Source: Candidatus Aminicenans sakinawicola JGI OTU-1
GTDB taxonomy: Bacteria > Acidobacteriota > Aminicenantia > Aminicenantales > Aminicenantaceae
DNA length: 64,000 nucleotides
Assembly: GCA_000493965.1 (NCBI GenBank)
Contig: AWNV01000001.1
Span: forward strand, 41,167-105,166
Direction: 5' to 3'
Translations under genes and position numbers: made by a program
Part shown: piece after piece, positions 27,523 through 56,200 of the stretch
Numbering within the stretch: the first letter of the stretch is position 1
Layout of the letters: every line of letters starts with the position of its first letter
Notes under the pieces: model-generated
What the model was told of the DNA's origin: nothing
What the model saw: the letters and a program-made list of their open reading frames with translations, nothing else
Database searches by the model: none

Positions 27523-27530
27523 TAAATAAG

Positions 27531-28508: not shown

Positions 28509-28596
28509 TAGCAAAAAAGATGCTATTGAAAAAACAGAATATATATTTATTTTATTGAAGAGAGCTATTGTATTAAATCAATAAAAGTGATTAAAG

Positions 28597-29616
28597 ATGC
28601 TAAAAAGAATTGAGAAAAATAACATATCACTTCCTTCCTTAAAAGGCAGAAGAGTTCTTATCACAGGAGGGTTAGGTTTTATAGGAAGCAATCTGGCACA
28701 TAAATGTGTAGAGTTAGGGGCTGAAGTCACAATTTTTGATGTTTTAGATCCCCGGTCAGGAGGAAATCTATATAATATTCAGGGAATTCAGGATTCAGTA
28801 GAACTGCAATATTTTAACATTCTCGACTTTGGCCAAGTATCTCAAAGTGTAATAAAGAAGGATATTATTTTTAACTGTGCAGCATCAACATCTCATCCTT
28901 TTTCTATGATAGAGCCATGGATCGATCTGGATATAAACAGTAAAGGAGTGATTAATTTACTTGAGGCAATTCGTCGTTTTAACAGAGAGGTGAAGTTTAT
29001 ACATTTGGGTACAAGCACTCAGTTAGGAAAGCTACAATTTCAACCAGCAGATGAAAATCATCCTGAATTTCCTACTGATATCTATTCTGCAAACAAATGT
29101 GTTTCGGAAAAGTATACTTTGATATATTCAAGAGCAAGGCAGATATGTGGTTCTGTCCTTAGGCTGACGAATGTTTATGGCCCGAGAGCTAGTATACACA
29201 GCCCGGAGTTTACATTTAACAATTTTTTTATTGGATTGGCCTTACAAGGGAAAGAAATTACAGTATATGGTGATGGCAGCCAATTGCGAAACATAATTTT
29301 TGTTGATGATGTTGTTGAGGCTCTTATCCTTGCGTCCCAGTGTTCAAAGATAAATAATGAAACATTTTTTGTAGCCGGAGATTTTCATTACAGCATCTCA
29401 AATATTGCAGAAGAGATAGTGAAACATATGAAGAGAGGAAAAGTAAAATATGTGGAATGGCCAAAAGACAGAAAATCAATCGATTTTGGAGATGCCATAA
29501 TAAGTAATCAGAAGATCAAAAAAGTATTAAATTGGACTCCTCGAACTGATTTTAAAACTGGTTTAATTAAGACTAGGGATTATTATAAAAATTGTTTGGA
29601 AGAATATTTGAGGTGA
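28597..29616 (+). CDS. NAD-dependent epimerase/dehydratase (extended SDR) no. 2
   Basis: VLITGGLGFIGSNLAHK; YSANK catalytic dyad. Confidence 0.75.
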   Translation: MLKRIEKNNISLPSLKGRRVLITGGLGFIGSNLAHKCVELGAEVTIFDVLDPRSGGNLYNIQGIQDSVELQYFNILDFGQVSQSVIKKDIIFNCAASTSHPFSMIEPWIDLDINSKGVINLLEAIRRFNREVKFIHLGTSTQLGKLQFQPADENHPEFPTDIYSANKCVSEKYTLIYSRARQICGSVLRLTNVYGPRASIHSPEFTFNNFFIGLALQGKEITVYGDGSQLRNIIFVDDVVEALILASQCSKINNETFFVAGDFHYSISNIAEEIVKHMKRGKVKYVEWPKDRKSIDFGDAIISNQKIKKVLNWTPRTDFKTGLIKTRDYYKNCLEEYLR

Positions 29617-29620
29617 TATT

Positions 29621-30553
29621 ATGAAAATTGTGATTACTGGAGCTTTGGGGCATATAGGCTCAAAAGTTATCCGGGAAATCCCAGAAACTTTCCAAGAACC
29701 TGAAATTGTTATGATCGATAATATGTTGACTCAACGCTACTGTTCTTTGTTTAACTTACCTGCTCGCGGGAAATATTCTTTTATAGAAGCAGATGTATTA
29801 AATATGGAACTATGCCCCATTATTGAGGGAGCTGATTTTGTCCTGCATTTGGCTGCTATTACTGATGCCACAAGCAGTTTTAAAAACAAAGATCAGGTTG
29901 AAAATGTCAATTATAAAACAACAGTGAGGGTTTCCGAGGCTTGTAATGAAGTTGGATGCCCCATGATCCATTTTTCAACAACCAGCGTATATGGCACCCA
30001 ACAAAACGTTGTAGATGAAGATTGTTCTCCTGAGGAACTACGGCCACAAAGCCCCTATGCAGAGACAAAATTGAGGGAAGAACAATTTTTGCAAAATTTT
30101 GGCGCAGCAGAAAATTTGGATTTTTTAATATGTCGTTTTGGAACAATATGTGGGATTTCTCCTGGGATTCGCTTTCATACAGCGGTGAATAAATTCTGCT
30201 GGCAGGCTGTTATGAAGCAGCCGCTTTCTGTATGGCGGACAGCTTTATTTCAAAAGCGTCCCTATTTGGTTCTGAGTGATGCAGTGAAAGCCATTATATT
30301 TATAATTAAAAACAACTTGTTTGATAAAAGGATTTATAATGTCCTATCAGAAAATAGGACAGTACATTCCATTATTCAATGTATAAAACAATATATTCCC
30401 CAGTTAAATATTCAATATGTAAATGCCGAGATCATGAATCAGTTATCTTATGAAGTCTCAAACCTGCGCTTCAAAGAACAAGGATTTGAATTTTCAGGGA
30501 GTGTAGATAAAAGTATTCAAGAAACGATTCAATTACTTTTAACTGTGAAATAA
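29621..30553 (+). CDS. NAD-dependent epimerase/dehydratase (extended SDR) no. 3
   Basis: MKIVITGALGHIGSKV; YAETK. Confidence 0.7.
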   Translation: MKIVITGALGHIGSKVIREIPETFQEPEIVMIDNMLTQRYCSLFNLPARGKYSFIEADVLNMELCPIIEGADFVLHLAAITDATSSFKNKDQVENVNYKTTVRVSEACNEVGCPMIHFSTTSVYGTQQNVVDEDCSPEELRPQSPYAETKLREEQFLQNFGAAENLDFLICRFGTICGISPGIRFHTAVNKFCWQAVMKQPLSVWRTALFQKRPYLVLSDAVKAIIFIIKNNLFDKRIYNVLSENRTVHSIIQCIKQYIPQLNIQYVNAEIMNQLSYEVSNLRFKEQGFEFSGSVDKSIQETIQLLLTVK

Positions 30554-36587: not shown

Positions 36588-37532
36588 ATGAAAATATTTA
36601 TTGCTGGAGGAGCTGGCTTTATTGGAAATTATACTACAGAATTTCTTTTAAGTGATAAAGAGAATAAAATCATAATCTTTGATAATTTTTCATCTCCTGG
36701 TTCGAGAAAGAACTTAGCCCATTTTAAAAACAATAACTTTTTAAAGATAATTGAAGGTGACATACAGAATTTGGAACTATTAGCCAAATCAATGAAAGGA
36801 TGCGAGAGAGTATATCATTATGCATCAAATCCAGATATAGCAAAAAGCATGACTCAGCCAGATTTAGATTTTTATCAAGGTACCCTTTTAACACAAAATA
36901 TTTTAGAGGCAATGCGAATCAATAATATAAAAATTATTATATATACTTCGGGAAGTGGAATTTACGGCGATCAGGGAGAGATGCCTATAGGGGAAGATTT
37001 TGCCCCTATGCTTCCTGTATCAACTTATGGAGCAAGTAAGCTAGCTTCTGAATCTCTAATTTCAGCTTATTGTCATATGTTCAATATGAATGCTTATGTT
37101 TTTCGGCCAGCAAACGTTGTCGGGAAGCGTCAAACTCATGGGGTTGCTTATGATTTTATAAAAAAGCTTAGAGCAAATCCTCACAAGTTAGAAATATTAG
37201 GTGATGGCTCTCAGAGTAAGTCTTATATTTACGTCAAAGATTTAATTGATGCTATCCATTATGTGATGGAAAATGATCATGATTTATTCAATTATTATAA
37301 TGTAGCTACTGATGATTATATTGATGTAAAAAGGATAGCTGAGATTGTAATTGAAGAGATGGGATTGAAAAATGTTAGTCTTTTATTTGGTCCTGAAAAA
37401 AGAGGCTGGAAAGGAGATGTCCCCATAGTCAGATTTAGTCTGGATAAAATTCATAAATTAGGCTGGTTTGCTAAGATGAGCAGTGAGGAAGCTGTAAGCC
37501 GCTCTGTTTCTGAAATGTTAAGCTGTACCTGA
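36588..37532 (+). CDS. NAD-dependent epimerase/dehydratase (UDP-hexose 4-epimerase-like SDR) no. 4
   Basis: MKIFIAGGAGFIGNYT; YGASK. Confidence 0.75.
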   Translation: MKIFIAGGAGFIGNYTTEFLLSDKENKIIIFDNFSSPGSRKNLAHFKNNNFLKIIEGDIQNLELLAKSMKGCERVYHYASNPDIAKSMTQPDLDFYQGTLLTQNILEAMRINNIKIIIYTSGSGIYGDQGEMPIGEDFAPMLPVSTYGASKLASESLISAYCHMFNMNAYVFRPANVVGKRQTHGVAYDFIKKLRANPHKLEILGDGSQSKSYIYVKDLIDAIHYVMENDHDLFNYYNVATDDYIDVKRIAEIVIEEMGLKNVSLLFGPEKRGWKGDVPIVRFSLDKIHKLGWFAKMSSEEAVSRSVSEMLSCT

Positions 37533-37540
37533 GAAAATAA

Positions 37541-38242
37541 ATGCAAGCAGTCATAATGGCAGGAGGATTGGCTACAAGGATTAGACCTCTAACCAATGAG
37601 ATTCCAAAGTCGTTAGTATCAATCGAAGAAAGACCTTTTTTACAGTATCAAATAGAATTACTTACTTGCTATGGCATAAAAGATATTATTCTGTGTGTGA
37701 GTTACATGGGTAAAAAAATTGAGAACTGTTTTGGTGATGGGAATAAATATAATGCAAGAATAATATATTCATATGAAAAAGAAAAGCTTTTAGGAACTGG
37801 GGGAGCTCTTAAATTAGCTGAAAAAAATCTTAAAGAAAATTTTTTTTTAATATGGGGAGATTCCTATGTTAATTTAAATTATAAAGAAATGCATGACTTT
37901 CATCTAAAGAATTCTGATAATTTCGATGTCACAATAGCAATTTTTTATAACATAAGAAATTATGATAAAAGTAATATTGTTTATAAGAGTGGAAAAATAA
38001 AAAAATATGAAAAAAATTCAACCGATAAAATGAAATATATCGATGCTGGAGTAATGGTTATAAATAAGAAGTTATTATTAAGAATACCTCCTGGAAAGGT
38101 TTTTCAAATAGAAAATTTATTTACTAAACTAGCAAAAGAAGAGAAAATAAAACCTTTTTTAATAAAAAAAAGATATTATGAGGTAGGGTCATTAAAAGGA
38201 TTAAATCAATTCACAAAATTCGTAAAGAGAAATCAAATTTAA
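37541..38242 (+). CDS. Sugar-1-phosphate nucleotidyltransferase (HddC/RmlA-like NTP_transferase)
   Basis: MQAVIMAGGLATRIRPLTNEIPKSLV N-terminal nucleotide-binding signature; 233 aa. Confidence 0.75.
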   Translation: MQAVIMAGGLATRIRPLTNEIPKSLVSIEERPFLQYQIELLTCYGIKDIILCVSYMGKKIENCFGDGNKYNARIIYSYEKEKLLGTGGALKLAEKNLKENFFLIWGDSYVNLNYKEMHDFHLKNSDNFDVTIAIFYNIRNYDKSNIVYKSGKIKKYEKNSTDKMKYIDAGVMVINKKLLLRIPPGKVFQIENLFTKLAKEEKIKPFLIKKRYYEVGSLKGLNQFTKFVKRNQI

Positions 38243-38351: not shown

Positions 38352-39644
38352 ATGAGAATGAAGAGTAAAAAAGAAACTGCAATCTTAGGTGGGGGGCTGG
38401 CAGGTCTTTCAACCGCATATTTCATGAAGGATAACTGCATCGTTCTAGAAGAAAATAACGAATTAGGAGGGTTATGCAGAAGTTTTAAAAAAGATGGTTT
38501 TGTATATGATATAGGAGGACATATTCTTTTTTCTAAGAATAAAAAGATATTGTCAGAAATAGTAAGCTGGTTGAGAAATAATGTTCGAAGAAAGTACCGA
38601 AAGAATCAAGTCTGGTATAAGGATAGATTTGTGAAATATCCGTTTGAAAATGGACTTTATTCTTTAGATAAAAAAGAAATATATGATTGTTTAATAGGTT
38701 ATCTGATAAATGAGAATAAAGAACCTAAGAACTTAGAGGAATGGTGTAAATATACTTTTGGCAATGGAATAGCGGAAAAATACTTGATCCCTTATAACGA
38801 AAAGATTTGGAAACATGATTTAGAAGACATGTCAACTCATTGGGTTGAGAGAATTCCGAAGCCTCCAATGAAAGATATAATAAAATCTGCAATTGGAATA
38901 AGGACAGAAGGATACAGACATCAACTTTATTTTTATTACCCAAAAATTGGTGGAATAAATTCACTTATCAATTTTTTAAAAAATAATGTAAAGAATATAG
39001 AAAAAGGATTTAAAGTAACAGGAATAAAAAAGAAGAATAACAAATGGAAAGTTTCAAACGGTAGTAAAATAAAAGAATTTGATCGCATTATTTCTACAAT
39101 CCCAGTCTTTGATTTAATCAGTTGTTTAGATGGAGTTCCTGCTGAGGTAAAAGGAGCTCTCAAGAGACTAAATTATAATTCTTTGATTGTTGTCATGATT
39201 GGAATTAAAAATGAAACATTTAATAATAAAACAGCTATCTATATACCTGACCGTAATATTTTGCCTCATAGAGTATGCTTTATGAAATATTTCTCTAATA
39301 AAAATGCTCCTGAAGGCTGCTCTCATTTAATAGCTGAAATTACAGTTAAACCCAATGATGCTTTATTAAAGATAAATGATAGCACTATTGTCGAAAAAGT
39401 ATCCTGTCAATTGGAAAGAATTTGTGGATTTTCAAAGAATGAAATAATTTCTACTGATATACAAAGAATAAAATATGCATATGTGATATATGATAAAGAT
39501 TATTCAAAAAACACAGACATTGTTTTTGGTTATTTAAACGATCTTGGAATATATTGCACAGGAAGATTTGGTGCTTTTCAATACATCAACATGGACACTT
39601 GCGTAGAAATGTCAAAAAGATTAGTTCGATCTTTGAATAATTAG
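38352..39644 (+). CDS. UDP-galactopyranose-mutase-like FAD enzyme, paralog 2
   Basis: ILGGGLAGLSTAY..ELGGLCRSF..DIGGHILFSK and C-terminal CTGRFGAFQYINMDTCVEMSKRL (compare Glf GGRLAEYKYYDMHQVI). Confidence 0.65.
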   Translation: MRMKSKKETAILGGGLAGLSTAYFMKDNCIVLEENNELGGLCRSFKKDGFVYDIGGHILFSKNKKILSEIVSWLRNNVRRKYRKNQVWYKDRFVKYPFENGLYSLDKKEIYDCLIGYLINENKEPKNLEEWCKYTFGNGIAEKYLIPYNEKIWKHDLEDMSTHWVERIPKPPMKDIIKSAIGIRTEGYRHQLYFYYPKIGGINSLINFLKNNVKNIEKGFKVTGIKKKNNKWKVSNGSKIKEFDRIISTIPVFDLISCLDGVPAEVKGALKRLNYNSLIVVMIGIKNETFNNKTAIYIPDRNILPHRVCFMKYFSNKNAPEGCSHLIAEITVKPNDALLKINDSTIVEKVSCQLERICGFSKNEIISTDIQRIKYAYVIYDKDYSKNTDIVFGYLNDLGIYCTGRFGAFQYINMDTCVEMSKRLVRSLNN

Positions 39645-39692: not shown

Positions 39693-40694
39693 ATGATTAT
39701 AACAAGAACACCTTTTAGATTTACTCTTGGAGGAGGAGGGACTGATCTACCATCATATTATTCAAAGTATGGAGGTTTTATTTTTGCAGCTGGAATCAAC
39801 AAGTATATGTTTATCAACGTTAACCGCACTATTGTGGATAATTTAGTTCGGGTTAAGTATTCTAAATCAGAGACAGTGACTCATAGAGACGAATTAAAGC
39901 ACCCCATTGCAAAGGAAGCAATGAGGATGACTGAAATTGAAAATTCTTTGGAAATTGTTTCGATAGCTGACATACCTGCTGGAACAGGCTTGGGTTCTTC
40001 AAGTTGTTATGCCGTAGGACTTCTCAATGCTCTTCACACCATGAAAAGGGAATACATTCCACTCCATGAGCTTGCTGAGGAAGCTTGTGACCTTGAGATA
40101 AATAGACTTGGGGAACCTATTGGAAAACAGGATCAATACATGGCTGCCTTCGGGGGGTTGACAGTATTGGACATCAAAAAGGATGGCAATGTGTATGTTA
40201 GGTCAGCAAAATTAGAGGATTCATCCATGGATGATTTAAACAGGAATCTCCTCATGTTTTACACCAACACAACTCGCAGTGCAAATAAGATACTTTCAGA
40301 GCAGAGTAAAGGGATAAAAGAAAAAAAGGAGAATGTTGTAAAAAGTATGCATTATATAAAAGAGATTGGATATAAGATGCTTGAGGCACTTGAAGGTGGT
40401 AATATCACTGATGTAGGACTACTGTTTGATAAACACTGGCAGTATAAGAAGATGATGTCTACTAAGATTTCAAATCCCTGGTTCGATGAGATTTATGAGA
40501 CTGCCAAGCAAAATGGCGCCCTGGGTGGGAAGATTTCTGGGGCTGGCGGGGGTGGTTTCTTTCTCTTTTATACGGAAGAAAATCATAGTAAATTAAGAGA
40601 AGCCATGAGAAAGTTGAATTTAAGAGAGATGCGGTATAGATTTGATTTAGAAGGAACAAAGGTAATTGTGAATTTTATGGAAGGTGTAAGGTAA
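39693..40694 (+). CDS. GHMP-family sugar kinase (HddA-like D-glycero-D-manno-heptose 7-phosphate kinase or galactokinase-like)
   Basis: MIITRTPFRFTLGGGGTDLPSYY N-terminus, PAGTGLGSSS ATP-binding motif and a C-terminal GAGGGGF motif. Confidence 0.75.
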   Translation: MIITRTPFRFTLGGGGTDLPSYYSKYGGFIFAAGINKYMFINVNRTIVDNLVRVKYSKSETVTHRDELKHPIAKEAMRMTEIENSLEIVSIADIPAGTGLGSSSCYAVGLLNALHTMKREYIPLHELAEEACDLEINRLGEPIGKQDQYMAAFGGLTVLDIKKDGNVYVRSAKLEDSSMDDLNRNLLMFYTNTTRSANKILSEQSKGIKEKKENVVKSMHYIKEIGYKMLEALEGGNITDVGLLFDKHWQYKKMMSTKISNPWFDEIYETAKQNGALGGKISGAGGGGFFLFYTEENHSKLREAMRKLNLREMRYRFDLEGTKVIVNFMEGVR

Positions 40695-40702
40695 TTTTTC
40701 AA

Positions 40703-41884
40703 ATGAAAAAGCGGATAGGGATTTTAACTGGTGGCGGTGATGTCCAAACTCTCAATTCTGTTATAGCTTCCGCTTACAATGCTGCTAATACCTTAAACAT
40801 TGAATTGGTAGGAATTATAAAAGGGTGGAAAGGAGCACTAGAGGCGAATTATGTTGATCTATCAAATCTTTCCATTGACCCAAAAATTGGAGGGTCAATC
40901 TTAAAGCACTCACGGGTTAACATAAGTAAAGTTGAAAATGGATACGAAAAGGTTTTGGATAATTTTAAAAGAAACAATATAACAGGTTTAATTGTTATTG
41001 GAGGAGAAGACACTCTATCTAATGCGTTTTTGATTAAACTAATTCCCCAAGTTCTTATTTCAAAGACAATAGATAATGATGTGGGTCAATTTGAATATAA
41101 TGATAAAGAATTCAGATTAGAGAATATTATTAACTATTTTACTTTAGGCTTCCCGACTGCGGCTGAAAAGATAACCTCTTTTGTTAGCTTGAAAGAAGGT
41201 CTGAGAACTACAGCTTATTCCCATGAAAGAATTATTATACTGGAGGCGATGGGAATGCATTCAGGTTGGCTTGCTCTTTCTTCGGGAATGGGTTACCCAG
41301 ATTTTATCATTATCCCTGAATTTCCATTGAAGTATGAATTGTTTCTAGACAAGGTTATAAAAAAATATGAATATCAAAGACATCTTATCATTGTTGTGGC
41401 TGAAGGCGCAAAAAGGCAAAATGGATCATATGTTTGTGCAGAAAAAGATGAAATTGAAGATTTTGACCATCCTCGTTTTGGTGGGTCGGCATATGCTCTA
41501 AGAGATCAATTAAAAAAAGATTTAGTAAAACATTTCAATCTAAGGAATATTAACGCTGTGAATCCTTCGTACTTATATCGCTCAGGAACCCCAAATGAGC
41601 TTGATCAATTTTGGGCAAAAAGGCTGGGAGAAAGAGCAGTCAAATTGTTAGCTGATGGAATGAATGAGACAAGTTTTCTTGCTATTCAAAAAAATAAATC
41701 AGGATTCAGAGTTAAAAATTTCCCTTTATCAAATTTCAACTCTATTGATGAATTACATAGGTTTGTTGATAATAGACTTTATGACCCGGAAGAATTTCAA
41801 ATTACTGAAAATGGTAAGAAGTACTTAAGGGAAATTGTTGAAGAAATTCCGGTTGAGAAATCATATGGAATAAAAGAGGGATAG
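40703..41884 (+). CDS. PfkA-family phosphofructokinase-like sugar-phosphate kinase
   Basis: KRIGILTGGGDVQTLNSVI (compare PFK IGVLTSGGDAPGMNAAI), ..GLIVIGGEDTLSNA..; 393 aa. Confidence 0.7.
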   Translation: MKKRIGILTGGGDVQTLNSVIASAYNAANTLNIELVGIIKGWKGALEANYVDLSNLSIDPKIGGSILKHSRVNISKVENGYEKVLDNFKRNNITGLIVIGGEDTLSNAFLIKLIPQVLISKTIDNDVGQFEYNDKEFRLENIINYFTLGFPTAAEKITSFVSLKEGLRTTAYSHERIIILEAMGMHSGWLALSSGMGYPDFIIIPEFPLKYELFLDKVIKKYEYQRHLIIVVAEGAKRQNGSYVCAEKDEIEDFDHPRFGGSAYALRDQLKKDLVKHFNLRNINAVNPSYLYRSGTPNELDQFWAKRLGERAVKLLADGMNETSFLAIQKNKSGFRVKNFPLSNFNSIDELHRFVDNRLYDPEEFQITENGKKYLREIVEEIPVEKSYGIKEG

Positions 41885-41929
41885 AAATTAAGATGAAATG
41901 GAAATCAATATGATAACAAAGGAGGAACA

Positions 41930-42622
41930 ATGGCCATATTTTTAGACACAGGTAAAATTGAAGAAATCAAAAAGTACATGAATATGGGCGTTCTAAGAGG
42001 AGTAACGACCAATCCGACTATTCTTTTAAAATCTGGAGTAAAAGGAGGAAAAAAGGCTATTAAGAATAGATCAATTGAAATTGCGAATATAATTAAACCC
42101 TATCCTCTATCAGTTGAGGTTACGACGAATGAGCCACAAGAAATGATTGAACAGGCGAGAGAGTTTTCTGAGTGGGCAGGAAATATTAATGTAAAAATAA
42201 CAGTCCATGGCCCTAACGGTGAACTTGATAACCTAGAAGTGGCGCACTTACTAGAGACCAAATACGATATTCGTGTCAATGTTACAGCCATGATGAGTGC
42301 GCAGCAATGCTTTTTAGCTGCTTTAGCTGGGGCCACATATGTCTCTTTATTCGGGGGAAGGGTGAACAACATGGGTTATAATGTTTGCATGGAAATAAAA
42401 AAACTTCGTAAGGTTCTTGACAATTTTGGCCTTAAGGCAAAAATTATTATAGGCTCAACACGGGAAGTTTTAAACGTTATAGAGTGGCTTGAGGCAGGTG
42501 CTCACATTGTTACTGTTATGCCTGAATTTCTTAAAGGAATGATTATTCATCCTTACAGCAAAGAAACGGTGCAGATGTTTCTTGATGATGCGAAAAAAGC
42601 TGAGGAGATGCTTAAGTCCTGA
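41930..42622 (+). CDS. Short transaldolase / fructose-6-phosphate aldolase family (TalC/FSA-like)
   Basis: MAIFLDTGKIEEIKKYMNMGVLRGVTTNPTIL, a near-canonical N-terminus of the 220-aa transaldolase/FSA family. Confidence 0.8.
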   Translation: MAIFLDTGKIEEIKKYMNMGVLRGVTTNPTILLKSGVKGGKKAIKNRSIEIANIIKPYPLSVEVTTNEPQEMIEQAREFSEWAGNINVKITVHGPNGELDNLEVAHLLETKYDIRVNVTAMMSAQQCFLAALAGATYVSLFGGRVNNMGYNVCMEIKKLRKVLDNFGLKAKIIIGSTREVLNVIEWLEAGAHIVTVMPEFLKGMIIHPYSKETVQMFLDDAKKAEEMLKS

Positions 42623-49562: not shown

Positions 49563-51509
49563 ATGAAGATTGTCGATCACTTTTATGAAAGGTTTATTTT
49601 AATTGCTCCTGTTATAATTGTACGAATTAGGACTATTTATACACGCGAAGGAATATTTGGACTGGTTAAATATATTATAAGGAGATTTTATCGAAAGATA
49701 CTTTATGTATTAGATACTGATATATTTGGAAGGCTTCAATTCAAAGATTGGCAAAAAAATATTGAAAGAAGATATTTTAATAAACAATATATAGAAGACA
49801 TTAGTTATACTGTGGGCGATGATGTAAAATTCTCAATAATTTTTCCCGTCTGGAACAAACCACAAGCTATAATTCATAAGGCATTATCCTCTGTAGTAAA
49901 TCAATATTATAAAAACTGGGAGTTGTGCATATCAGATGGTTCCACCGAAAAGGTTGAGGAAACACGAGAATTTCTAAAAGGGTTTCAGAAGGAAAATCCT
50001 GATAAAGTTAAACTAAATTTTCTCAAGAATCCTTCAGAGATAAATTTAATTGAAAATTCAAATAGTGCAATTGCGATGGCAGAGGGAAACTTCTGTATTT
50101 TTTTGGACTGCGATGACGAGATTTCTCTTAACTGCCTGCTTGAACTAGCTCTTGCAGTTAAACAAAAGCCAGAAGTCGATTTCATTTATAGTGATTTTGA
50201 TAAGATAGATTTGGAGGGAAACAGATTCAATCCGTTTTTTTGGCCGGATTGGTCCCCTCATACAATTCTTTCTCAAATGCACACAACTCATGTAACTTGT
50301 TATCGGACAGAACTAATAAAAAAACTTGGCGGGCTTAGGAAAGGAACTGAGGGAGCTCAGGATTGGGATTTGGTCTTAAGACTCAGTGAGCAAACTAACA
50401 AAATTGTTCATATCCCAAAGATTCTATATCATTGGAGGGTTTATAAAGGATCAACTGCGCGAAAAAATAGTGGCGCAAAGGATTGGGTGGATAAAGCACA
50501 GAAGAAGGTTTTAACAGATTGGATTAAAAGAAATAACCTAAAAGCTGAAGTTATAGAAGGTGCCTTCCAAGGCTCCTGGAGAATTAAATACAGCATAAAA
50601 AATTCTCCTGGGGTCTCAATAATAATTCCTTTTCGTGATAAGGTAATCTATTTAGAAAAATGTGTGAAAAGTATCTTAGAAAAAACAATATATGATAACT
50701 ATGAAATTGTCATTATAAACAATCGATCTATAAAGAAAAGTACCTTGGCATACTTGGAAACTATATCAAAGATGGAAAAGATTAAAGTTTTGAATTACGA
50801 CGAAGCATTCCATTTTGGGAAATTAAATAACTGGGCTGTAGAACATGTTGATTGTGAATATGTTTTACTCTTAAATAATGATGTGGAAGTAATAAATGAG
50901 GAGTGGTTAAATGCAATGCTTGAGTATGCTCAATTACCGGAGGTTGGGGAAGTTGGGGCAAAACTTCTTTATCCAGATGGGAAAATTCAGCATGCTGGAA
51001 TTGGCGTTGGGTTGGGAGGAGCAGCAGCCCATCCTCACAGGATGCTCAGTGGCGATGGTTTTGGCTTTCAGGGTTGGTTGGTAAATCCTCGTAATGTAAT
51101 AGCTGTAACAGCCGCCTGTATGATGATTAAACGTAATTTGTTTTTAGAAATAGGGAGTTTTGATCCACAGTTTGATCCGGCATATCAAGATGTTGATTTT
51201 GGCATAAGGCTTTATGAAAAGGGATATTGGAATGTTTATACTCCTTATGCCAGGCTCTGCCATTATGAATCAGTGACACGCTTTGCCAGTGATTATACTG
51301 ATACACTCACAAAAGATGCAGAAAACGCTGTAAAGCTGAGGAAAAAGTGGCCTCAATATGTTGGTATTGACTTCGGGGCAGATCCTTTTTATAGCCCAAA
51401 CCTTTCTTATGACCATGAAGATATGCGTTTCAGGACATATTGGTACCCAGAAGATTGGGGAAAACGAGTGGGTTTAATTTATGATTTTGAAAAAAATAAG
51501 AGCTCTTAA
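49563..51509 (+). CDS. Two-domain GT2 glycosyltransferase (tandem GT-A domains)
   Basis: Domain 1 FSIIFPVWNKPQAIIHKALSSVVNQYY..LDCDDE; domain 2 VSIIIPFRDKVIYLEKCVKSIL..LLNNDVEV. Confidence 0.75.
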   Translation: MKIVDHFYERFILIAPVIIVRIRTIYTREGIFGLVKYIIRRFYRKILYVLDTDIFGRLQFKDWQKNIERRYFNKQYIEDISYTVGDDVKFSIIFPVWNKPQAIIHKALSSVVNQYYKNWELCISDGSTEKVEETREFLKGFQKENPDKVKLNFLKNPSEINLIENSNSAIAMAEGNFCIFLDCDDEISLNCLLELALAVKQKPEVDFIYSDFDKIDLEGNRFNPFFWPDWSPHTILSQMHTTHVTCYRTELIKKLGGLRKGTEGAQDWDLVLRLSEQTNKIVHIPKILYHWRVYKGSTARKNSGAKDWVDKAQKKVLTDWIKRNNLKAEVIEGAFQGSWRIKYSIKNSPGVSIIIPFRDKVIYLEKCVKSILEKTIYDNYEIVIINNRSIKKSTLAYLETISKMEKIKVLNYDEAFHFGKLNNWAVEHVDCEYVLLLNNDVEVINEEWLNAMLEYAQLPEVGEVGAKLLYPDGKIQHAGIGVGLGGAAAHPHRMLSGDGFGFQGWLVNPRNVIAVTAACMMIKRNLFLEIGSFDPQFDPAYQDVDFGIRLYEKGYWNVYTPYARLCHYESVTRFASDYTDTLTKDAENAVKLRKKWPQYVGIDFGADPFYSPNLSYDHEDMRFRTYWYPEDWGKRVGLIYDFEKNKSS

Positions 51510-51616: not shown

Positions 51617-52555
51617 ATGAAACTTATCGTACAAATCCCTTGTTATAATGAGGCAAATTATTTGCCATTGACCCTGAAAGATATCCCTAAGGAAATAACG
51701 GGAATAGATATAATTGAAATCCTCATTATAGATGATGGTAGTTCTGATGGCACAGCAGAAGTAGCAGAAAAAAATGGAGTACACCATGTTGTGCGTTTCA
51801 AGAAACACAGAGGACTGGCAGCTGCCTTTTCTTCCGGCCTCGAAGCTTGCTTGCTTAATGGAGCAGATATCATTGTAAACACGGATGCAGATAATCAGTA
51901 CAATGGTGCTGATATACCCAAGCTTATTAACCCTATTTTAAAGGGAGAAGCTGATATTGTTATTGGTGACCGTCAGACTCAAAACGTACCTCATTTTTCA
52001 TGGATAAAAAAGATACTACAAAAGTGGGGAAGTTATATTATTAAACTCCTATCAAAAACGAATATTCCGGATGCCCCGAGTGGATTTCGTGCAATAAATC
52101 GAGAAGCCGCCTTTAAGCTCAATATTCTTTCAGATTTCTCGTATACATTAGAAACACTTATTCAAGCTGGAAATATAGGCCTTGAAGTAAAAAGTGTTCC
52201 CATAAGAACTAACGAAAAGATAAGAGATTCCCGGCTGTTTAATAATATGTTCTCTTTTCTAAAACAATCAGGCTCTACTATTCTTCGGACTTATACAATG
52301 CATAAGCCCTTAAAAATATTTTTAATTTTTGCTGTGATATTTTTTATTTTAGGATTTATTTTAGGTGTTAGATTTTTATATTTTTTCTACGCTGTACATT
52401 CCCAGGGTCATATTCAATCGTTGATATTGAGTGCGATTTTGTTGATTGCAAGTTTTCTATTAGCAGTTGTTGCAATTTTATCTGATCTGATTGCTTCGAA
52501 TAGAAAACTTATCGAAGAAACTTTACGGCGAATTAGAAGAATAGAAAGCAAGTAA
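51617..52555 (+). CDS. GT2 polyprenyl-phosphate glycosyltransferase with C-terminal TM anchor (GtrB/ArnC/DPM1-like)
   Basis: MKLIVQIPCYNEANYLPLTL..ILIIDDGSSDGT..; two C-terminal TM helices. Confidence 0.75.
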   Translation: MKLIVQIPCYNEANYLPLTLKDIPKEITGIDIIEILIIDDGSSDGTAEVAEKNGVHHVVRFKKHRGLAAAFSSGLEACLLNGADIIVNTDADNQYNGADIPKLINPILKGEADIVIGDRQTQNVPHFSWIKKILQKWGSYIIKLLSKTNIPDAPSGFRAINREAAFKLNILSDFSYTLETLIQAGNIGLEVKSVPIRTNEKIRDSRLFNNMFSFLKQSGSTILRTYTMHKPLKIFLIFAVIFFILGFILGVRFLYFFYAVHSQGHIQSLILSAILLIASFLLAVVAILSDLIASNRKLIEETLRRIRRIESK

Positions 52556-52591
52556 ACTGATAATAGTTTTGATTGATTAATCGAGGTTCTT

Positions 52592-53899
52592 ATGACAAAA
52601 GTTATTATTTTAGGAGCTGGGCTGTCAGGATTAAGTGCGGCTTATCATTTAAAAGAAAATTATGAAATATTCGATAAAGATGAAAAGGTCGGAGGCTTGT
52701 GTCGCTCAATAAAAATAGGCGATTTTATTTTTGATTACGGTCCTCATATTCTTTTTCCAAAGGATGAATACATTGCTAAACTAATCAGAAGACTTTTAAA
52801 TAGAAATTTTCATCATCAACGAAGGGAAGCCTGGATTTATCACAAACTTTATGATATTTATACACGTTTTCCTTTCCAATCGCACCTTTACGGTTTACCT
52901 GTCTCAGTTGTAAAAGAATGTATTTTAGGCTTTTTTAATGCACTAAAGAACCCGGATAAAAAGCCTGAGGATTATGAAGAATGGATTATTTGGAATTTTG
53001 GAGAAGGTATTGCCGAATATCTAATGATTCCATATGCAAAGAAAATATGGACTATGCATCCAGGCAATATGAGCTTCGAATGGGTTTGGAATAGAGTCCC
53101 TCGACTTTCTTTAGAAGAATTATTAGAGGGAGCACTTCATGATAATCCAAAATTGTTCGGATTTAACACGGAATTTTGGTATCCGCTTCACGGTGGTATA
53201 GAAGCTCTTCCGCTTGCTTTTCTTTCTGAAGTTAAAAATGTAAACTTGAAGATGGAAGTAAGCAAGGTTTATTTAAGTAAAAAATGTGTTGAATTTAACA
53301 ATAATAAGAAAGTCTTGTTTGAAAAACTTATTTCTACTCTACCTCTTCCTGAAATTATCAAATATATTGATGATGTTCCAAATGAAGTAAAAAAAGCCTC
53401 TCAGGAACTTGAAAATAATTCTGTCTACTGTGTAAACTTAGGAATAGAACGGGAAAGGATAAGCCCTTACCACTATGTCTATTTCTATGAGCCTGATTTT
53501 TTATTTCATCGGATCAGTTATCCAATGAATTTCTCAAAACATACAGTTCCCAAAGGATGTAGTTCAATTTCTACGGAAACTTCTTATTCCAAATATAAGA
53601 AGATTAGCAAGGAAAACATAATAGAAAGAGTTGTTGAGGATTTAATAAAAGCAAAAATTTTGTTTCCAGACGATAAAATTGTCGTTTCAGATGCTACAGA
53701 TCTTAGATATGCCTATGTCATATATGACAGAAACCACAGAAAAAACGTAAATAAAATACATGATTTTTTGCGCAAAAACAGCATTTTCCCTTGCGGCAGA
53801 TTTGGTGAATGGGAATATTTTAACATGGATCACAGTATCGCTAGTGGGAAAAGAATCGCAGAAGAAATTAACACCATTTATAGTAAAGGAATTCTTTAA
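52592..53899 (+). CDS. UDP-galactopyranose-mutase-like FAD enzyme, paralog 3
   Basis: VIILGAGLSGLSAAY..KVGGLCRSI..DYGPHILFPK; C-terminal CGRFGEWEYFNMDHSIASGKRIA. Confidence 0.65.
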   Translation: MTKVIILGAGLSGLSAAYHLKENYEIFDKDEKVGGLCRSIKIGDFIFDYGPHILFPKDEYIAKLIRRLLNRNFHHQRREAWIYHKLYDIYTRFPFQSHLYGLPVSVVKECILGFFNALKNPDKKPEDYEEWIIWNFGEGIAEYLMIPYAKKIWTMHPGNMSFEWVWNRVPRLSLEELLEGALHDNPKLFGFNTEFWYPLHGGIEALPLAFLSEVKNVNLKMEVSKVYLSKKCVEFNNNKKVLFEKLISTLPLPEIIKYIDDVPNEVKKASQELENNSVYCVNLGIERERISPYHYVYFYEPDFLFHRISYPMNFSKHTVPKGCSSISTETSYSKYKKISKENIIERVVEDLIKAKILFPDDKIVVSDATDLRYAYVIYDRNHRKNVNKIHDFLRKNSIFPCGRFGEWEYFNMDHSIASGKRIAEEINTIYSKGIL

Positions 53900-53900
53900 A

Positions 53901-55199
53901 TTGAACCCGATTTCTATTTTAGGGGCAGGGCCAACTGGTTTAAGCACTGGCTATTATTTAAGAAAAAATTATTCAATTTTGGAAAAGAACAATGAAGTTG
54001 GTGGAGGCTGCCGTACAGAAAAAATAAATGGATTTAGTTTTGATCATGGGGGACATATTTTTTATCCAAAAAAAAAAGAGATACAAGCACTAATTAATAA
54101 ATTCGTAAAAGATAATTTAAAGTGTATGCCAAGAGAAGCCTGGGTGTATTCAAAGGACATCTATACGCGTTATCCATTTCAAGCAAATCTATATGGTCAT
54201 TCTATTCAAGTTGTTAAAGAATGTCTTTTGGGATTAATGAAGGCAAAATTAAAATTCGGAGAAAAACCTAATAACTTTACTGATTTTGAGGATTTTATAT
54301 ATAAGGTTTTTGGAGACGGGATTGCGAAACACTTTATGATCCCATTTAATTTGAAACAATGGGCAGTGCCTTTAAACAAAATGACATTAGAATGGATGGG
54401 AAAATTTATTCCACTGCCAACATTAGAAGAAGTTTTGGATGGAAGCTTGAAAATGTCTCCCCGCTGCATGGGAATCAATGCAAATTTTATCTATCCTCAA
54501 AAAGGAGGGATTCAATCTATCTTCGACTCTTTCATTCCCTTCCTACAGAACCTTCATATAAAATCTGAAGTAACTTATGTTTCATTAAAAAACAAATCGT
54601 TTGAAATAAATGGACAGAAAAAATGCTTCTATGAAAAGCTCGTTTCAACTATTCCTTTACCAGAGTTGGTTCGAATTATTAAATCTATTCCTTCAGAAAT
54701 TAGGTTGGCCTCTGAAAAATTAAGATGGACATCGCTTTTTGTGGTCAATATAGGAATTGATCGGCCTGCAATTTCAAATAAACATCGTGTATATTACCCG
54801 GAGGAAAAATATATTTTTCACAAACTTGGTTACTATCAGAATCAATCTCCATATATGGTTCCAAATGGTAAAAGTGCGGTTAGCGCAGAAATATCTTTTT
54901 CTAAAAATAGGCTTATCAATGAAGACACATTAATTGAAAGAACTATAAAAGATTTAATAAAAGCCAGAGTACTTTATCCAGATGATAAAATTGTATTGAC
55001 TCATATCATAACTATTCCTTATGCATATGCAATTTATGACCATCAGAGAAAGAAAGCCGTCTCATTTATAAAACAATTTTTGGAAAAGAATGATATTTAT
55101 CTTTGTGGAAGATATGCTCAATGGGAATATCAAAATATGGAGCAGAACATTCTTGCAGGAAAAGCAATGGCTGAAAAATTGAATGCAGAGATTGAATAA
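53901..55199 (+). CDS. UDP-galactopyranose-mutase-like FAD enzyme, paralog 4 (tandem with paralog 3)
   Basis: The TTG at 53901 lies 2 nt after the upstream stop and gives MNPISILGAGPTGLSTGY..EVGGGCRTE..DHGGHIFYPK; C-terminal CGRYAQWEYQNMEQNILAGKAMA. The longer upstream extension (53760) overlaps the previous gene and was rejected. Confidence 0.6.
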   Translation: MNPISILGAGPTGLSTGYYLRKNYSILEKNNEVGGGCRTEKINGFSFDHGGHIFYPKKKEIQALINKFVKDNLKCMPREAWVYSKDIYTRYPFQANLYGHSIQVVKECLLGLMKAKLKFGEKPNNFTDFEDFIYKVFGDGIAKHFMIPFNLKQWAVPLNKMTLEWMGKFIPLPTLEEVLDGSLKMSPRCMGINANFIYPQKGGIQSIFDSFIPFLQNLHIKSEVTYVSLKNKSFEINGQKKCFYEKLVSTIPLPELVRIIKSIPSEIRLASEKLRWTSLFVVNIGIDRPAISNKHRVYYPEEKYIFHKLGYYQNQSPYMVPNGKSAVSAEISFSKNRLINEDTLIERTIKDLIKARVLYPDDKIVLTHIITIPYAYAIYDHQRKKAVSFIKQFLEKNDIYLCGRYAQWEYQNMEQNILAGKAMAEKLNAEIE

Positions 55200-55354
55200 A
55201 AAAAATAGGATCATAAAAGGAGCTATTTTCCTTAAATATCGCGCCAGAATCTGTTTTCTATTCGAGAAAGAAAGCAGGATAAGTAATCACAAGTAAATAT
55301 GTAAACTTTTTTCATTAGAAAGAATTACTGAATTTCAGCTTTTACTTTATAGAG

Positions 55355-56200
55355 ATGTCCATGAGATCAATTAATAGAATATTTCCAAGAATATTAATAA
55401 GACAATTTTATAGATACCTCACGGATTGTAGGATGACAGAAATCGACGAAAATGATTTGAAACAATCTGCGGTTGTTTTCTCACCGCACCCAGATGATGA
55501 GACACTTGGTTGTGGTGGTATCATTATTTGCAAAAAGAGAGAAGGAGCAAATGTAAAAATAATCTTTATGTGTGATGGTTCTGGATCTCACTTGAATCTT
55601 TTCACGGCAAGTAAATTGAAGGCTGTACGTACACAAGAAGCATTAGCAGCAGCTCAAATGCTTGGAGTTGAGAAAAGGGATGTCACCTTTCTTGGATTTA
55701 AAGATAAAGAATTAATAAAACACCAGAACGTAGCTATCAACAGAGTAATAGAAATCGTTGAACGCTACAAACCTTGCCAAATCTACATTCCATATTATAG
55801 AGATGTACTAGCAGATCATATTGTTACAAACAGGATTGTAACATCTGCACTTCAAATTTGTAGATCAAAGGCAATCATCTATGAATATCCCATATGGTTC
55901 TGGCGTCACTGGCCTTGGGTAAGTATACCAATCAGTTTCCGTAGAGAAACTCTGTATCGCTTGGCATATAGTCTTGTTGAAGGTATGGGTTTGCGATTAC
56001 TGCGGGATTTTGGATGCTTCGTTTCCATCAAAGCAATTTTAGAACTTAAACGTGCAGCGTTAGATCAACATAGATCGCAGATGAAAGGGCTCATATATGA
56101 TCCAAATTGGCTGACCTTAGGTGATGTATCGAATGGAGAGTGGCTGGAATGCTTTTTTCAAGACCGGGAAATTTTTCGTCGATACAGGCTTTTGACTTAA
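55355..56200 (+). CDS. PIG-L/LmbE-family N-acetylglucosaminyl deacetylase
   Basis: ..AVVFSPHPDDETLGCGGII.. metal-binding motif. Confidence 0.75.
   Translation: MSMRSINRIFPRILIRQFYRYLTDCRMTEIDENDLKQSAVVFSPHPDDETLGCGGIIICKKREGANVKIIFMCDGSGSHLNLFTASKLKAVRTQEALAAAQMLGVEKRDVTFLGFKDKELIKHQNVAINRVIEIVERYKPCQIYIPYYRDVLADHIVTNRIVTSALQICRSKAIIYEYPIWFWRHWPWVSIPISFRRETLYRLAYSLVEGMGLRLLRDFGCFVSIKAILELKRAALDQHRSQMKGLIYDPNWLTLGDVSNGEWLECFFQDREIFRRYRLLT

What the first reader, a model, noticed from the sequence alone, without database searches (positions are those of the whole stretch)
52592..55199. Four paralogous UDP-galactopyranose-mutase-like flavoenzymes in one locus, two of them in tandem
The ORFs at 23340, 38352, 52592 and 53901 share an N-terminal GxGxxG...GG(L/G)C(R)...D(x)G(G/P)H(I)(L/F)F region. 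They also share a Glf-like C-terminal CGR(F/Y)G..(Y/W)(E/Q)Y.NMD motif. One mutase per locus is common. Four suggests several distinct furanose sugars (NDP-Galf, GalfNAc, heptofuranose and others), or neofunctionalised paralogs acting on the unusual NDP-sugars made by neighbouring genes.
Basis: partly seen in the sequence, partly recalled or inferred. Interest (0 to 1): 0.7.

Follow-up and report, generated by a model that had tools for sequence, protein, structure and literature searches.

The report
Four furanose-mutase-like flavoenzymes, one glycan island
A sugar-polymer gene island of an uncultured bacterium (probably Aminicenantes) carries four anciently diverged relatives of the flavoenzyme that turns six-membered nucleotide-sugar rings into five-membered ones. 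This is an unusually rich example of a known kind of enzyme, and one copy has a rearranged active site.

Summary
Four homologous ORFs lie at 23340-24749 (O1), 38352-39644 (O2), 52592-53899 (O3) and 53901-55199 (O4). There is no fifth copy.

They are not members of the bacterial GLF Pfam family and score as generic Amino_oxidase. The experimentally proven T. cruzi mutase scores the same way, so that label refutes nothing.

O2-O4 belong to the eukaryote-type UGM class:
- O3 matches TcUGM at 4e-45 over its full length.
- The O4 AlphaFold model superposes on AfUGM at TM 0.94, against 0.76 for protoporphyrinogen oxidase.

O1 belongs to a separate clade whose profile matches K. pneumoniae UGM on every catalytic motif.

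The His-loop, the Tyr/Arg/Tyr diphosphate triad and the catalytic Arg are kept, except in O4. The whole O4 clade has Arg327→Lys and Trp315→Arg and lacks the mobile-loop Arg.

The four are ancient subfamilies, not local duplicates. Each sits in a different sugar-nucleotide or glycosyltransferase cassette.

Best reading: four NDP-sugar pyranose/furanose mutases with different substrates. The function is inferred, not shown. C. jejuni HS:41 is credited with three such mutases (two assayed). This is a moderately interesting new variant of a known kind.

The parts
23340..24749 (+). O1: UGM-like flavoprotein (469 aa) of a separate clade with bacterial-type FFxPYTxxxW and Y-x-D motifs. It has a non-canonical start (ATT 23340, or CTG 23334).
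38352..39644 (+). O2: UGM-like flavoprotein (430 aa) of the eukaryote-type class. Its subfamily has H-Q in place of P206-N207.
52592..53899 (+). O3: UGM-like flavoprotein (435 aa) of the eukaryote-type class with all canonical catalytic residues.
53901..55199 (+). O4: UGM-like flavoprotein (432 aa, TTG start one base after the O3 stop). Its subfamily has R327→K (K308) and W315→R (R296) and has lost the mobile-loop Arg.
49563..51509 (+). Two-domain GT2 glycosyltransferase (chondroitin-synthase-like). It is the first gene of the conserved GT2x2 / GT2 / O3 / O4 module.
51617..52555 (+). GT2 with C-terminal membrane helices, similar to DPM1/ArnC/GtrB polyprenyl-phosphate glycosyltransferases. It lies directly upstream of O3.
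55355..56200 (+). PIG-L family de-N-acetylase downstream of O4. The linkage is not conserved in relatives.
36588..37532 (+). SDR resembling a 4,6-dehydratase or epimerase (O2 cassette).
37541..38242 (+). Sugar-1-phosphate nucleotidyltransferase (HddC/MurU-like) directly upstream of O2. The same gene order occurs as a fusion in P0345.
39693..40694 (+). GHMP sugar kinase. Its best match is HddA (heptose-7-P kinase), below the family cut-off (O2 cassette).
40703..42622 (+). PFK-like kinase (40703-41884) and a fructose-6-P aldolase/transaldolase-like gene (41930-42622) (O2 cassette).
24742..30553 (+). O1 cassette: NDP-hexose C-methyltransferase-like gene (24742), DegT aminotransferase (25923), RmlC-like cupin (27043) and three SDRs (27498, 28597, 29621).

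Best explanation
The four genes most likely encode FAD-dependent nucleotide-sugar pyranose/furanose mutases from four anciently separated subfamilies of the UDP-galactopyranose-mutase superfamily. Each would feed a different furanose sugar into the glycans made by this composite polysaccharide island.

Inferred mechanism, by homology with AfUGM, TcUGM and KpUGM:
- Reduced FAD is held by the Rossmann domain and the G-(G/P)-H loop.
- Flavin N5 attacks C1 of the NDP-sugar and displaces the nucleotide diphosphate.
- The diphosphate stays clamped by two Tyr and one or two Arg.
- The flavin-iminium sugar opens and recloses as a five-membered ring, and the NDP re-attacks.

Shown here: homology, fold (O4), conservation of catalytic residues, subfamily-specific sugar-pocket residues, and gene context.

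Inferred: activity, the identity of each substrate, and that O4, with its Arg/Lys rearrangement, is still a mutase.
For: Sequence and fold:
- O3 matches TcUGM at 4e-45 and AfUGM at 3e-37 over its full length.
- TcUGM finds all four window genes by tblastn, at 1e-49 to 2e-13.
- The O4 AF2 model has pLDDT 95.5. Its top 34 PDB hits are all eukaryotic UGMs (TM 0.91-0.94, rmsd about 2 Å). PPOX comes next at TM 0.76 and rmsd 5.6 Å.
- The O1-clade profile has K. pneumoniae UGM as its best PDB hit (6.9e-23). The three matched segments cover FFKGYTxKQW, PYTRI (R280) and YP..GRLGTYRYLDMD. PPOX matches only in the Rossmann N-terminus.
- O1 clade against O3/O4 clade by hhalign gives probability 100 and E 3.7e-47 over the full length.

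Active site, mapped on AfUGM Table 2 (PMC3322874):
- H63, R91, W167, Y317, E373, Y419, R447 and Y453 are kept in all four.
- R327 is kept in O1-O3 and R182 in O2 and O3.
- These residues are invariant or near-invariant in 120, 69 and 40 clade members respectively.

Context and precedent:
- O2-type homologues occur fused to a nucleotidyltransferase (P0345) and to a GT2 (P0360).
- Neighbours are sugar-nucleotide genes and glycosyltransferases.
- C. jejuni mutases act on UDP- and CDP-sugars (both assayed) and, by prediction only, on GDP-heptoses. The HS:41 locus is credited with three mutase genes, of which the GDP-heptose one (HS41.15) is uncharacterised (PMC12369002, PMC10680097, PMC10615251).
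Against: - No member of these prokaryotic subfamilies was found to be biochemically characterised in the literature searched.
- Pfam GLF is not reached: O1 scores 24.8 against a cut-off of 26.3, and O2-O4 give no hit.
- NCBIfam's best model is the uncharacterised PRK07208, and the scores are below its cut-off.
- For O1 the fold search cannot separate UGM from PPOX (E 1e-27 against 1e-29; TM 0.77-0.80 against 0.75-0.77).
- O4 lacks both canonical arginines. In AfUGM, R327K retains about 1.5% of kcat/Km and R327A is dead.
- O1 has no canonical start codon in this species.
- None of the substrates is identified.
Confidence: 0.6

Rival explanations
1. O4 is not an independent mutase. It would be a catalytically weakened or regulatory paralogue that works with O3, for example as a heteromer, or it has a different chemistry on the same scaffold.
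For: - O4 has K308 in place of the essential Arg.
- It has no conserved basic residue at the mobile-loop Arg position, which is K/E/D/Q/S across the clade.
- It is translationally juxtaposed to O3, with a one-base gap.
- The O3+O4 tandem, together with the two upstream GT2 genes, is conserved in close relatives.
Against: - The O4 clade is strongly conserved, with 31/31 close members and 12/18 distant members carrying the same R296/K308 pair.
- The clade is well supported in the tree (bootstrap 96).
- Distant O4-type genes in Verrucomicrobia and related genomes stand alone without an O3-type neighbour, as does an O3-type gene in a deltaproteobacterium.
- All other catalytic and nucleotide-pocket residues are kept (H52, R78, W154, Y298, Y376, R404, Y410, N412).
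- The Trp315→Arg change sits next to the Arg327 site and could supply the missing guanidinium. This last point is inference.
Confidence: 0.15
2. Some or all of the four are redox flavoenzymes of the amine-oxidase/PPOX superfamily, such as an NDP-sugar or lipid oxidoreductase, and not ring-contraction mutases.
For: - Pfam Amino_oxidase is the top hit for all four.
- Public annotations often read 'protoporphyrinogen oxidase' or 'FAD-dependent oxidoreductase'.
- The O1 model is as close to M. xanthus PPOX as to UGM.
Against: - Authentic TcUGM gives the same Pfam result.
- The PPOX NCBIfam model is below its cut-off and matches mainly the N-terminal region.
- With the O1 profile, PPOX is matched only in residues 4-64.
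- The UGM-specific His-loop, Arg, and Tyr/Arg/Tyr diphosphate clamp are all present.
- The gene context is glycan synthesis, not haem or carotenoid synthesis.
Confidence: 0.15
3. The four are redundant UDP-Galp mutases, each serving a different glycan cluster that happens to be adjacent. The multiplicity would then reflect island composition rather than four different furanoses.
For: - The window holds at least three Wzy-like proteins, two Wzx-like flippases, an ABC-2 transporter, a transposase and an AbiE pair. It is therefore a mosaic of several pathways.
Against: - Sugar-pocket positions differ between the four and are fixed within each clade. N207 is T/Q/N/N, P206 is P/H/F/I, W315 is Y/A/Y/R, N457 is D/N/N/N and N163 is T/N/A/N.
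- Identities are only 24-44%, and each copy has closer orthologues in other phyla than its paralogue in the window.
- O3 and O4 sit in the same module.
Confidence: 0.1

Closest known systems
Eukaryotic UDP-galactopyranose mutases (A. fumigatus UGM, PDB 3UTE/3UKH; T. cruzi UGM, PDB 4DSG)
   Same: - O2-O4 share the full-length fold. The O4 model gives TM 0.92-0.94.
- Sequence identity is 26-29%.
- The class-specific residues R91 and Y317 are present, along with the His-loop, E373, Y419, R447, Y453 and N457.
- In an NJ tree the eukaryotic enzymes nest inside the prokaryotic O3/O4-like radiation.
   Different: - The window proteins are about 430 aa rather than 480-510 aa, so the eukaryotic inserts are missing.
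- The two-residue insertion in Y-E-V-G-N-Q is absent; the window proteins read Y-x-N-M, as in D. radiodurans UGM.
- W315 is replaced by A, Y or R.
- O2 has H-Q at P206-N207.
- O4 has K at R327 and no mobile-loop Arg.
- The substrates are unknown.
Bacterial UDP-galactopyranose mutase Glf (E. coli K-12 Glf, K. pneumoniae UGM; Pfam GLF PF03275)
   Same: - The catalytic logic and motifs are the same.
- O1 shares F-F-x-x-Y-T-x-x-x-W, P-Y-x-R-I, Y-P and G-R-x-G-x-x-x-Y-x-D with KpUGM.
- KpUGM is the best PDB hit of the O1-clade profile.
   Different: - None of the four reaches the GLF gathering score, whereas EcGlf scores 288 bits.
- O1 is about 90 aa longer than EcGlf.
- O1 carries eukaryote-type R91 and Y317.
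- O1 has an invariant clade-specific loop, IPTHTRMSF..SLIEREMLPTYYP.
- Identity to EcGlf is about 25%.
C. jejuni HS:41 capsule locus with three pyranose/furanose mutase genes (CDP-fucose/6-deoxy-altrose mutase HS41.17; homologue of the UDP-L-arabinopyranose mutase assayed from HS:15; predicted GDP-6-deoxy-heptose mutase HS41.15)
   Same: - Several mutase genes lie in one glycan locus.
- Each is embedded in the cassette that makes its own NDP-sugar.
- This shows that such enzymes are not restricted to UDP-Gal.
   Different: - The HS:41 products are known from the capsule structure (an all-furanose repeat).
- I did not compare the Campylobacter sequences with the window proteins. The paper annotates HS15.16 as a putative UDP-galactopyranose mutase.
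- HS41.15 has not been characterised experimentally.
- The window has four genes from four deeply divergent, uncharacterised subfamilies, in an uncultured organism whose glycans are unknown.
Protoporphyrinogen oxidase (M. xanthus PPOX, PDB 2IVD/2IVE)
   Same: - Both belong to the FAD Rossmann plus amine-oxidase-type superfamily fold.
- PPOX is the top Foldseek hit for the O1 model, by a small margin.
   Different: - Sequence similarity is confined to the dinucleotide-binding N-terminus.
- By sequence or profile search, PPOX aligns with the window proteins only in the N-terminal Rossmann region and not over the UGM His-loop, Arg327 or Tyr/Arg/Tyr clamp motifs. I did not inspect the PPOX sequence itself for these residues.
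- For O4, PPOX is far behind UGM (TM 0.76 against 0.94).

Membership tests
UGM superfamily (FAD-dependent NDP-sugar pyranose/furanose mutases) | N-terminal FAD-binding Rossmann motif GxGxxG | tested here: met
   GAGISG, GGGLAG, GAGLSG and GAGPTG are present. For O1 the motif is translated only if the ATT/CTG start is used.
UGM superfamily (FAD-dependent NDP-sugar pyranose/furanose mutases) | Histidine loop G-(G/P)-H over the flavin (AfUGM H63, EcUGM H56) | tested here: met
   H56, H57, H52 and H52 fall in the same alignment column as Af H63 and Ec H56. The position is invariant in all clades.
UGM superfamily (FAD-dependent NDP-sugar pyranose/furanose mutases) | Strictly conserved catalytic Arg contacting the beta-phosphate and O5 (AfUGM R327, KpUGM R280) | tested here: inconclusive
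   Met in O1 (R330), O2 (R307) and O3 (R307). Not met in O4, which has K308; this Lys is invariant in the 31 close members of the O4 clade (12 of the 18 more distant ones), with Arg at the neighbouring W315 position.
UGM superfamily (FAD-dependent NDP-sugar pyranose/furanose mutases) | Mobile-loop Arg (AfUGM R182, KpUGM R174) | tested here: inconclusive
   O2 has R167 and O3 has R168. O1 has a near-invariant R173 one position off the column (S-R-T-I-P). O4 has K168, which varies as K/E/D/Q/S within its clade.
UGM superfamily (FAD-dependent NDP-sugar pyranose/furanose mutases) | Diphosphate clamp Tyr/Arg/Tyr (AfUGM Y419, R447, Y453) and Asn/Asp457 | tested here: met
   All are present in all four. 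O1 has D, as in the E. coli, Klebsiella and M. tuberculosis enzymes. O2-O4 have N.
UGM superfamily (FAD-dependent NDP-sugar pyranose/furanose mutases) | Three-domain UGM fold | tested here: inconclusive
   O4 meets it clearly (TM 0.94 to AfUGM against 0.76 to PPOX). O1 is ambiguous (UGM 0.77-0.80 against PPOX 0.75-0.77). O2 and O3 were not modelled, but O3 aligns to TcUGM over its full length.
UGM superfamily (FAD-dependent NDP-sugar pyranose/furanose mutases) | Reduced-flavin-dependent pyranose/furanose interconversion | not testable with these tools
   This needs an enzyme assay.
Pfam GLF (PF03275; bacterial UGM substrate-binding domain) | Score at or above the gathering threshold of 26.3 bits | tested here: not met
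   O1 scores 24.8 bits and O2-O4 give no hit. The control EcGlf scores 287.7 bits.
Eukaryote-type UGM class | R91 and Y317 in place of the bacterial H/N and N, and W315 stacking on R327 | tested here: inconclusive
   R91 and Y317 are present in all four. W315 is replaced by Y, A, Y and R in O1-O4.
Eukaryote-type UGM class | Extra inserts (about 480-510 aa) and the Y-E-V-G-N-Q motif | tested here: not met
   The window proteins are 430-435 aa and the motif reads Y-x-N-M without the two-residue insertion.
Protoporphyrinogen oxidase (NCBIfam TIGR00562) | Score at or above the cut-off of 97.85 bits with a full-length match | tested here: not met
   Scores are 53, 62, 36 and 28.5 bits. Every best-scoring stretch is N-terminal; O2 has a second matched stretch whose coordinates are not shown. 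The O1 profile matches PPOX only in residues 4-64.
NCBIfam PRK07208.1-4 (uncharacterised 'hypothetical protein' equivalog) | Score at or above the cut-off of 389 bits | tested here: not met
   Scores are 286, 189, 191 and 184 bits. This is the best model for all four, but all are below the cut-off.

The most novel reading that the evidence does not exclude
The O4 subfamily may not act on a nucleotide-diphospho-sugar at all. Its features are Arg327→Lys, Trp315→Arg, and no conserved mobile-loop Arg. It occurs here directly after a DPM1/ArnC/GtrB-like polyprenyl-phosphate glycosyltransferase, and in PVC bacteria next to a large DUF6311 membrane protein. It could instead act on a sugar with a different leaving group, for example a polyprenyl-monophosphate-linked sugar, making a lipid-linked furanose donor. 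A flavin ring-contraction mutase working on lipid-linked sugars would be a new reaction class.

A milder version is that O1-O4 make four different NDP-furanoses, including a heptofuranose and a C-methyl or amino 6-deoxy-furanose, for glycans rich in furanosides.
Probability: 0.06. Interest if true: 0.8.

Novelty: new variant of a known kind. Interest (0 to 1): 0.4.

Why it matters
Furanose sugars are absent from mammals and are made by one unusual non-redox flavin mechanism. The characterised enzymes I found come from a few bacteria (Campylobacter, E. coli, Klebsiella, Mycobacterium, Deinococcus and Corynebacterium) and from eukaryotic pathogens.

This window shows a large, essentially unstudied prokaryotic radiation of UGM-like proteins that contains the eukaryote-type class. 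A single-protein search with O2 found about 1,000 clusters (50% identity) at E ≤ 1e-30. In public records these proteins are variously labelled 'protoporphyrinogen oxidase'.

Four of its subfamilies, with different sugar pockets, can coexist in one glycan island. The window therefore gives a compact set of candidates for new NDP-furanose specificities. It also provides a natural Arg→Lys / Trp→Arg active-site variant for testing how the diphosphate is held during ring contraction. Finally, it corrects two gene models, the O1 and O4 starts.

Tried and rejected
- **Pfam and NCBIfam placement.** The generic labels were uninformative, so I added TcUGM and EcGlf as controls.
- **O3/O4 as an obligate pair.** Rejected, because distant O4-type and O3-type genes occur singly. 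In 85 loci (±10 kb), only the four closest relatives keep the tandem. That survey cannot judge 'four within 32 kb', since only ±10 kb was held for each locus.
- **Conserved neighbours as a substrate clue.** Only GT2x2 / GtrB-like GT2 / O3 / O4 is conserved, and only in close relatives. The PIG-L, kinase, nucleotidyltransferase, PFK, FSA and C-methyltransferase genes are not conserved next to homologues. O1-type genes elsewhere sit in varied unusual-sugar clusters with DegT, SDRs, methyltransferases, split transketolase, radical SAM and carbamoyltransferase genes, without a fixed partner.
- **Upstream membrane protein as an O1 partner.** No similarity to the gene upstream of an O1 homologue.
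- **Cassette inversion in SAG contig L005.** The join of window 46002 to 27559 (reversed) is more likely a single-cell amplification chimera than real shuffling. This is inference.
- **Promoter and terminator scan of 49000-56500.** Counts were at chance level.
- **Literature search for a characterised prokaryotic member of these subfamilies.** Nothing was found in the held library.
- **First bootstrap tree.** It timed out and was redone with a faster distance method. The result is NJ only, and deep nodes are weak (53-72).
Full report
**1. Observation**

The window has four + strand ORFs at 23340/23400-24749 (O1), 38352-39644 (O2), 52592-53899 (O3) and 53760/53901-55199 (O4). tblastn of each protein against the whole window finds only these four places. 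Pairwise E-values run from 1e-19 to 1e-124, so this is homology and not chance, and there is no fifth copy or pseudogene. Identities are 44% for O3/O4, 32-33% for O2 against O3/O4, and 24-27% for O1 against the others.

Two gene models need correcting.
- O1's GxGxxG lies upstream of the first ATG/GTG/TTG. The frame opens after a TAA at 23313, and homologues begin MKPQVIILGAG exactly where the window reads ATT-AAA-CCA-CAG at 23340. All same-species contigs share the ATT. Gene callers start at TTG 23400 and drop the FAD motif.
- O4 most likely begins at TTG 53901, one base after the O3 stop. This matches orthologue lengths of 431-435 aa.

**2. Family placement**

Pfam gives Amino_oxidase plus NAD_binding_8 for all four. 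Only O1 shows a sub-threshold GLF match, at 24.8 against 26.3 bits. NCBIfam's best model for all four is the uncharacterised PRK07208.1-4, below its cut-off. Both the UGM and the PPOX models are also below their cut-offs.

The experimentally characterised T. cruzi UGM also scores Amino_oxidase plus NAD_binding_8 and not GLF. E. coli Glf scores 288 bits on GLF.

Evidence from solved structures:
- O3 matches TcUGM (4DSG) at 4e-45 over residues 3-423, and AfUGM at 3e-37. PPOX and amine oxidases match only in the Rossmann N-terminus.
- The O4 AlphaFold model (pLDDT 95.5) has 34 eukaryotic UGM chains as its top hits (TM 0.91-0.94, rmsd about 2 Å). The first PPOX follows at TM 0.76 and rmsd 5.6 Å.
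- O1 is more distant. Its model (pLDDT 86.6) is equally close to PPOX and UGM.
- The O1-clade profile nevertheless has K. pneumoniae UGM as its best PDB hit (6.9e-23). The three matched segments cover FFKGYTxKQW, PYTRI and YP…GRLGTYRYLDMD. PPOX matches only in residues 4-64.
- The O1 clade aligns end to end with the O3/O4 clade (hhalign probability 100, E 3.7e-47).

**3. Active site**

I aligned O1-O4 with TcUGM, AfUGM and E. coli Glf. The alignment reproduces 16 of the 20 structure-based equivalences in Table 2 of van Straaten et al. (PMC3322874).

Conserved in all four:
- the His-loop histidine (H63)
- R91, W167, Y317 and E373
- the diphosphate clamp Y419/R447/Y453.

Other positions:
- The essential Arg327 is present in O1 (R330), O2 (R307) and O3 (R307).
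- The mobile-loop Arg182 is present in O2 and O3. In O1 a near-invariant R173 sits one position away (S-R-T-I-P).
- O1 has bacterial-type features: F-F-x-P-Y-T-x-x-x-W, and Y-x-D instead of Y-x-N.
- O2-O4 read Y-x-N-M, as in D. radiodurans UGM.

These residues are invariant or nearly so in 120 O1-type, 69 close O3-type and 40 O2-type homologues.

O4 is the exception. It and all 31 close orthologues carry Lys at Arg327, Arg at Trp315, Phe at Tyr162 and Tyr at Phe66; 12 of the 18 more distant members also carry the Lys327/Arg315 pair. The mobile-loop position is unconserved (K/E/D/Q/S). In AfUGM, R327K retains about 1.5% of kcat/Km and R327A is inactive, and R327 stacks on W315. The coupled, clade-wide Trp→Arg and Arg→Lys changes therefore look like a relocated guanidinium rather than decay. 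That reading is an inference.

**4. Subfamilies and distribution**

The four are old paralogues. Each has orthologues in other phyla that are closer to it than its window paralogue is.
- O3-type occurs in Deltaproteobacteria, Planctomycetota and Acidobacteriota.
- O4-type occurs in Verrucomicrobia, Kiritimatiellae and Lentisphaerota.
- O1-type occurs in Desulfobacterales and Auribacterota, and in one MAG labelled Hodarchaeota.

An NJ tree gives well-supported O1 (95) and O4 (96) clades. O2 falls outside the O3/O4/eukaryote group. AfUGM and TcUGM nest among the prokaryotic sequences, though deep nodes are weak at 53-72.

A full phmmer scan with O2 finds 993 clusters (50% identity) at E ≤ 1e-30 and 3,482 at E ≤ 1e-10. 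The best hit is only 47% identical. Public names are inconsistent: protoporphyrinogen oxidase, UDP-galactopyranose mutase, FAD-dependent oxidoreductase.

Named close homologues and the SAG-type accessions point to Candidatus Aminicenantes. This assignment is an inference.

**5. Context**

Each paralogue sits in a different cassette.
- **O1** is followed by an NDP-hexose C-methyltransferase-like gene, a DegT aminotransferase, an RmlC-like cupin and three SDRs. It is preceded by a PMT_2 (GT-C) protein and an internally duplicated membrane protein.
- **O2** lies between an HddC/MurU-like nucleotidyltransferase and an HddA-like GHMP kinase. An SDR lies upstream, and PFK-like and FSA/transaldolase-like genes lie downstream. 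O2-type homologues exist as fusions with a nucleotidyltransferase (P0345) and with a GT2 (P0360). This ties the subfamily directly to nucleotide-sugar metabolism.
- **O3/O4** follow a two-domain GT2 and a GT2 resembling DPM1/ArnC/GtrB polyprenyl-phosphate glycosyltransferases. This four-gene module is conserved at 75-79% amino-acid identity in close relatives.

O4-type and O3-type genes also occur singly elsewhere. In 85 loci held at ±10 kb, 79 have one copy and 6 have two.

The 64-kb window is a mosaic. It holds at least three Wzy-like proteins, two Wzx-like flippases, an ABC-2 transporter, an initiating transferase, many GT4/GT2 genes, a transposase and an AbiE pair.

**6. Mechanism and rivals**

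The best-supported reading is four reduced-FAD NDP-sugar pyranose/furanose mutases with different substrates (confidence 0.6).

Shown here are homology, fold, catalytic residue conservation, clade-fixed differences in sugar-pocket positions (P206, N207, W315, N457, N163) and glycan context. Activity and substrates are inferred. A heptose-type substrate for O2 and a 6-deoxy, amino or C-methyl hexose for O1 are weak contextual guesses.

The rivals are:
- O4 as a non-catalytic partner or an altered chemistry (0.15)
- redox flavoenzymes rather than mutases (0.15)
- redundant UDP-Galp mutases belonging to adjacent clusters (0.1).

**7. Comparison and novelty**

Multiple mutases per locus have a precedent. 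The C. jejuni HS:41 capsule locus is credited with three pyranose/furanose mutase genes. The CDP-sugar mutase HS41.17 and the UDP-L-arabinopyranose mutase (assayed from serotype HS:15) are characterised; the predicted GDP-heptose mutase HS41.15 is not (PMC12369002, PMC10680097, PMC10615251).

What is new here:
- four copies
- all four from uncharacterised prokaryotic subfamilies, three of the eukaryote-type class and one hybrid clade
- the O4 active-site variant.

I rate this a new variant of a known kind, with interest 0.4.

Noticed in passing
window 23313-23400: O1 has ATT (23340) where homologues have ATG. The ATT overlaps the TAA stop (23342-23344) of the upstream ORF, and an in-frame CTG lies at 23334, downstream of a GAGGG at 23324-23328. 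All same-species contigs share this. Automatic gene calls start at TTG 23400 and remove the FAD-binding motif.
   Followed up: partly
window 21911-23344: A 477-aa predicted membrane protein with no Pfam hit is an internal tandem duplication. Its two halves are 46% identical over 155 aa (E 9e-47). It lies directly upstream of O1 and after a PMT_2 (GT-C) gene at 20542-21918.
   Followed up: partly
window 40703-42622: A phosphofructokinase-family gene and a fructose-6-phosphate aldolase/transaldolase-family gene are embedded in a glycan cluster, next to an HddA-like kinase. They may supply an unusual sugar phosphate, for example a heptulose route.
   Followed up: no
window 48070-49511: An AbiEii-family toxin gene (48705-49511) has a small overlapping upstream ORF (48070-48708). 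This looks like an abortive-infection or toxin-antitoxin pair inserted between glycan cassettes.
   Followed up: no
window 1-2231: A truncated radical-SAM ORF lies at the window edge (1-654). A DDE transposase (DUF772/DDE_Tnp_1, 815-2227, - strand) flanks the island.
   Followed up: no
window 30529-33186 (- strand): An 885-aa ORF on the opposite strand has no Pfam hit on record. It sits in the middle of the otherwise + strand gene array. In other contigs of the same species it is called as 817 aa.
   Followed up: no
window 6416-7759, 15640-17007, 43862-45919; 4920-6419, 58649-60082: Three Wzy_C-type polymerase/ligase genes and two Wzx-type flippases, plus an ABC-2 transporter gene near 63.4 kb, lie in one 64-kb stretch. 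The island probably encodes several glycans.
   Followed up: partly
L005 17632-17651 (window 46002 joined to 27559, reversed): One single-cell genome contig joins the Wzy gene region to the inverted O1 cassette through a 20-base overlap. This is probably an amplification chimera and not a real rearrangement.
   Followed up: partly
P0345, P0360, P0404 (homologues of O2): Natural fusions of the UGM-like domain exist with a nucleotidyltransferase (662 aa) and with a GT2 glycosyltransferase (729 aa). There is also a 1,551-aa protein carrying DUF707.
   Followed up: partly
L013-L016 (Verrucomicrobia-type contigs): Distant O4-type genes sit beside large membrane proteins of unknown function (PF19830 DUF6311 in L015/L016; a 1,012-aa protein without a Pfam hit in L013/L014), FGE-sulfatase-family genes and GDSL-family genes. 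This recurring neighbourhood is different from the one in the window.
   Followed up: no
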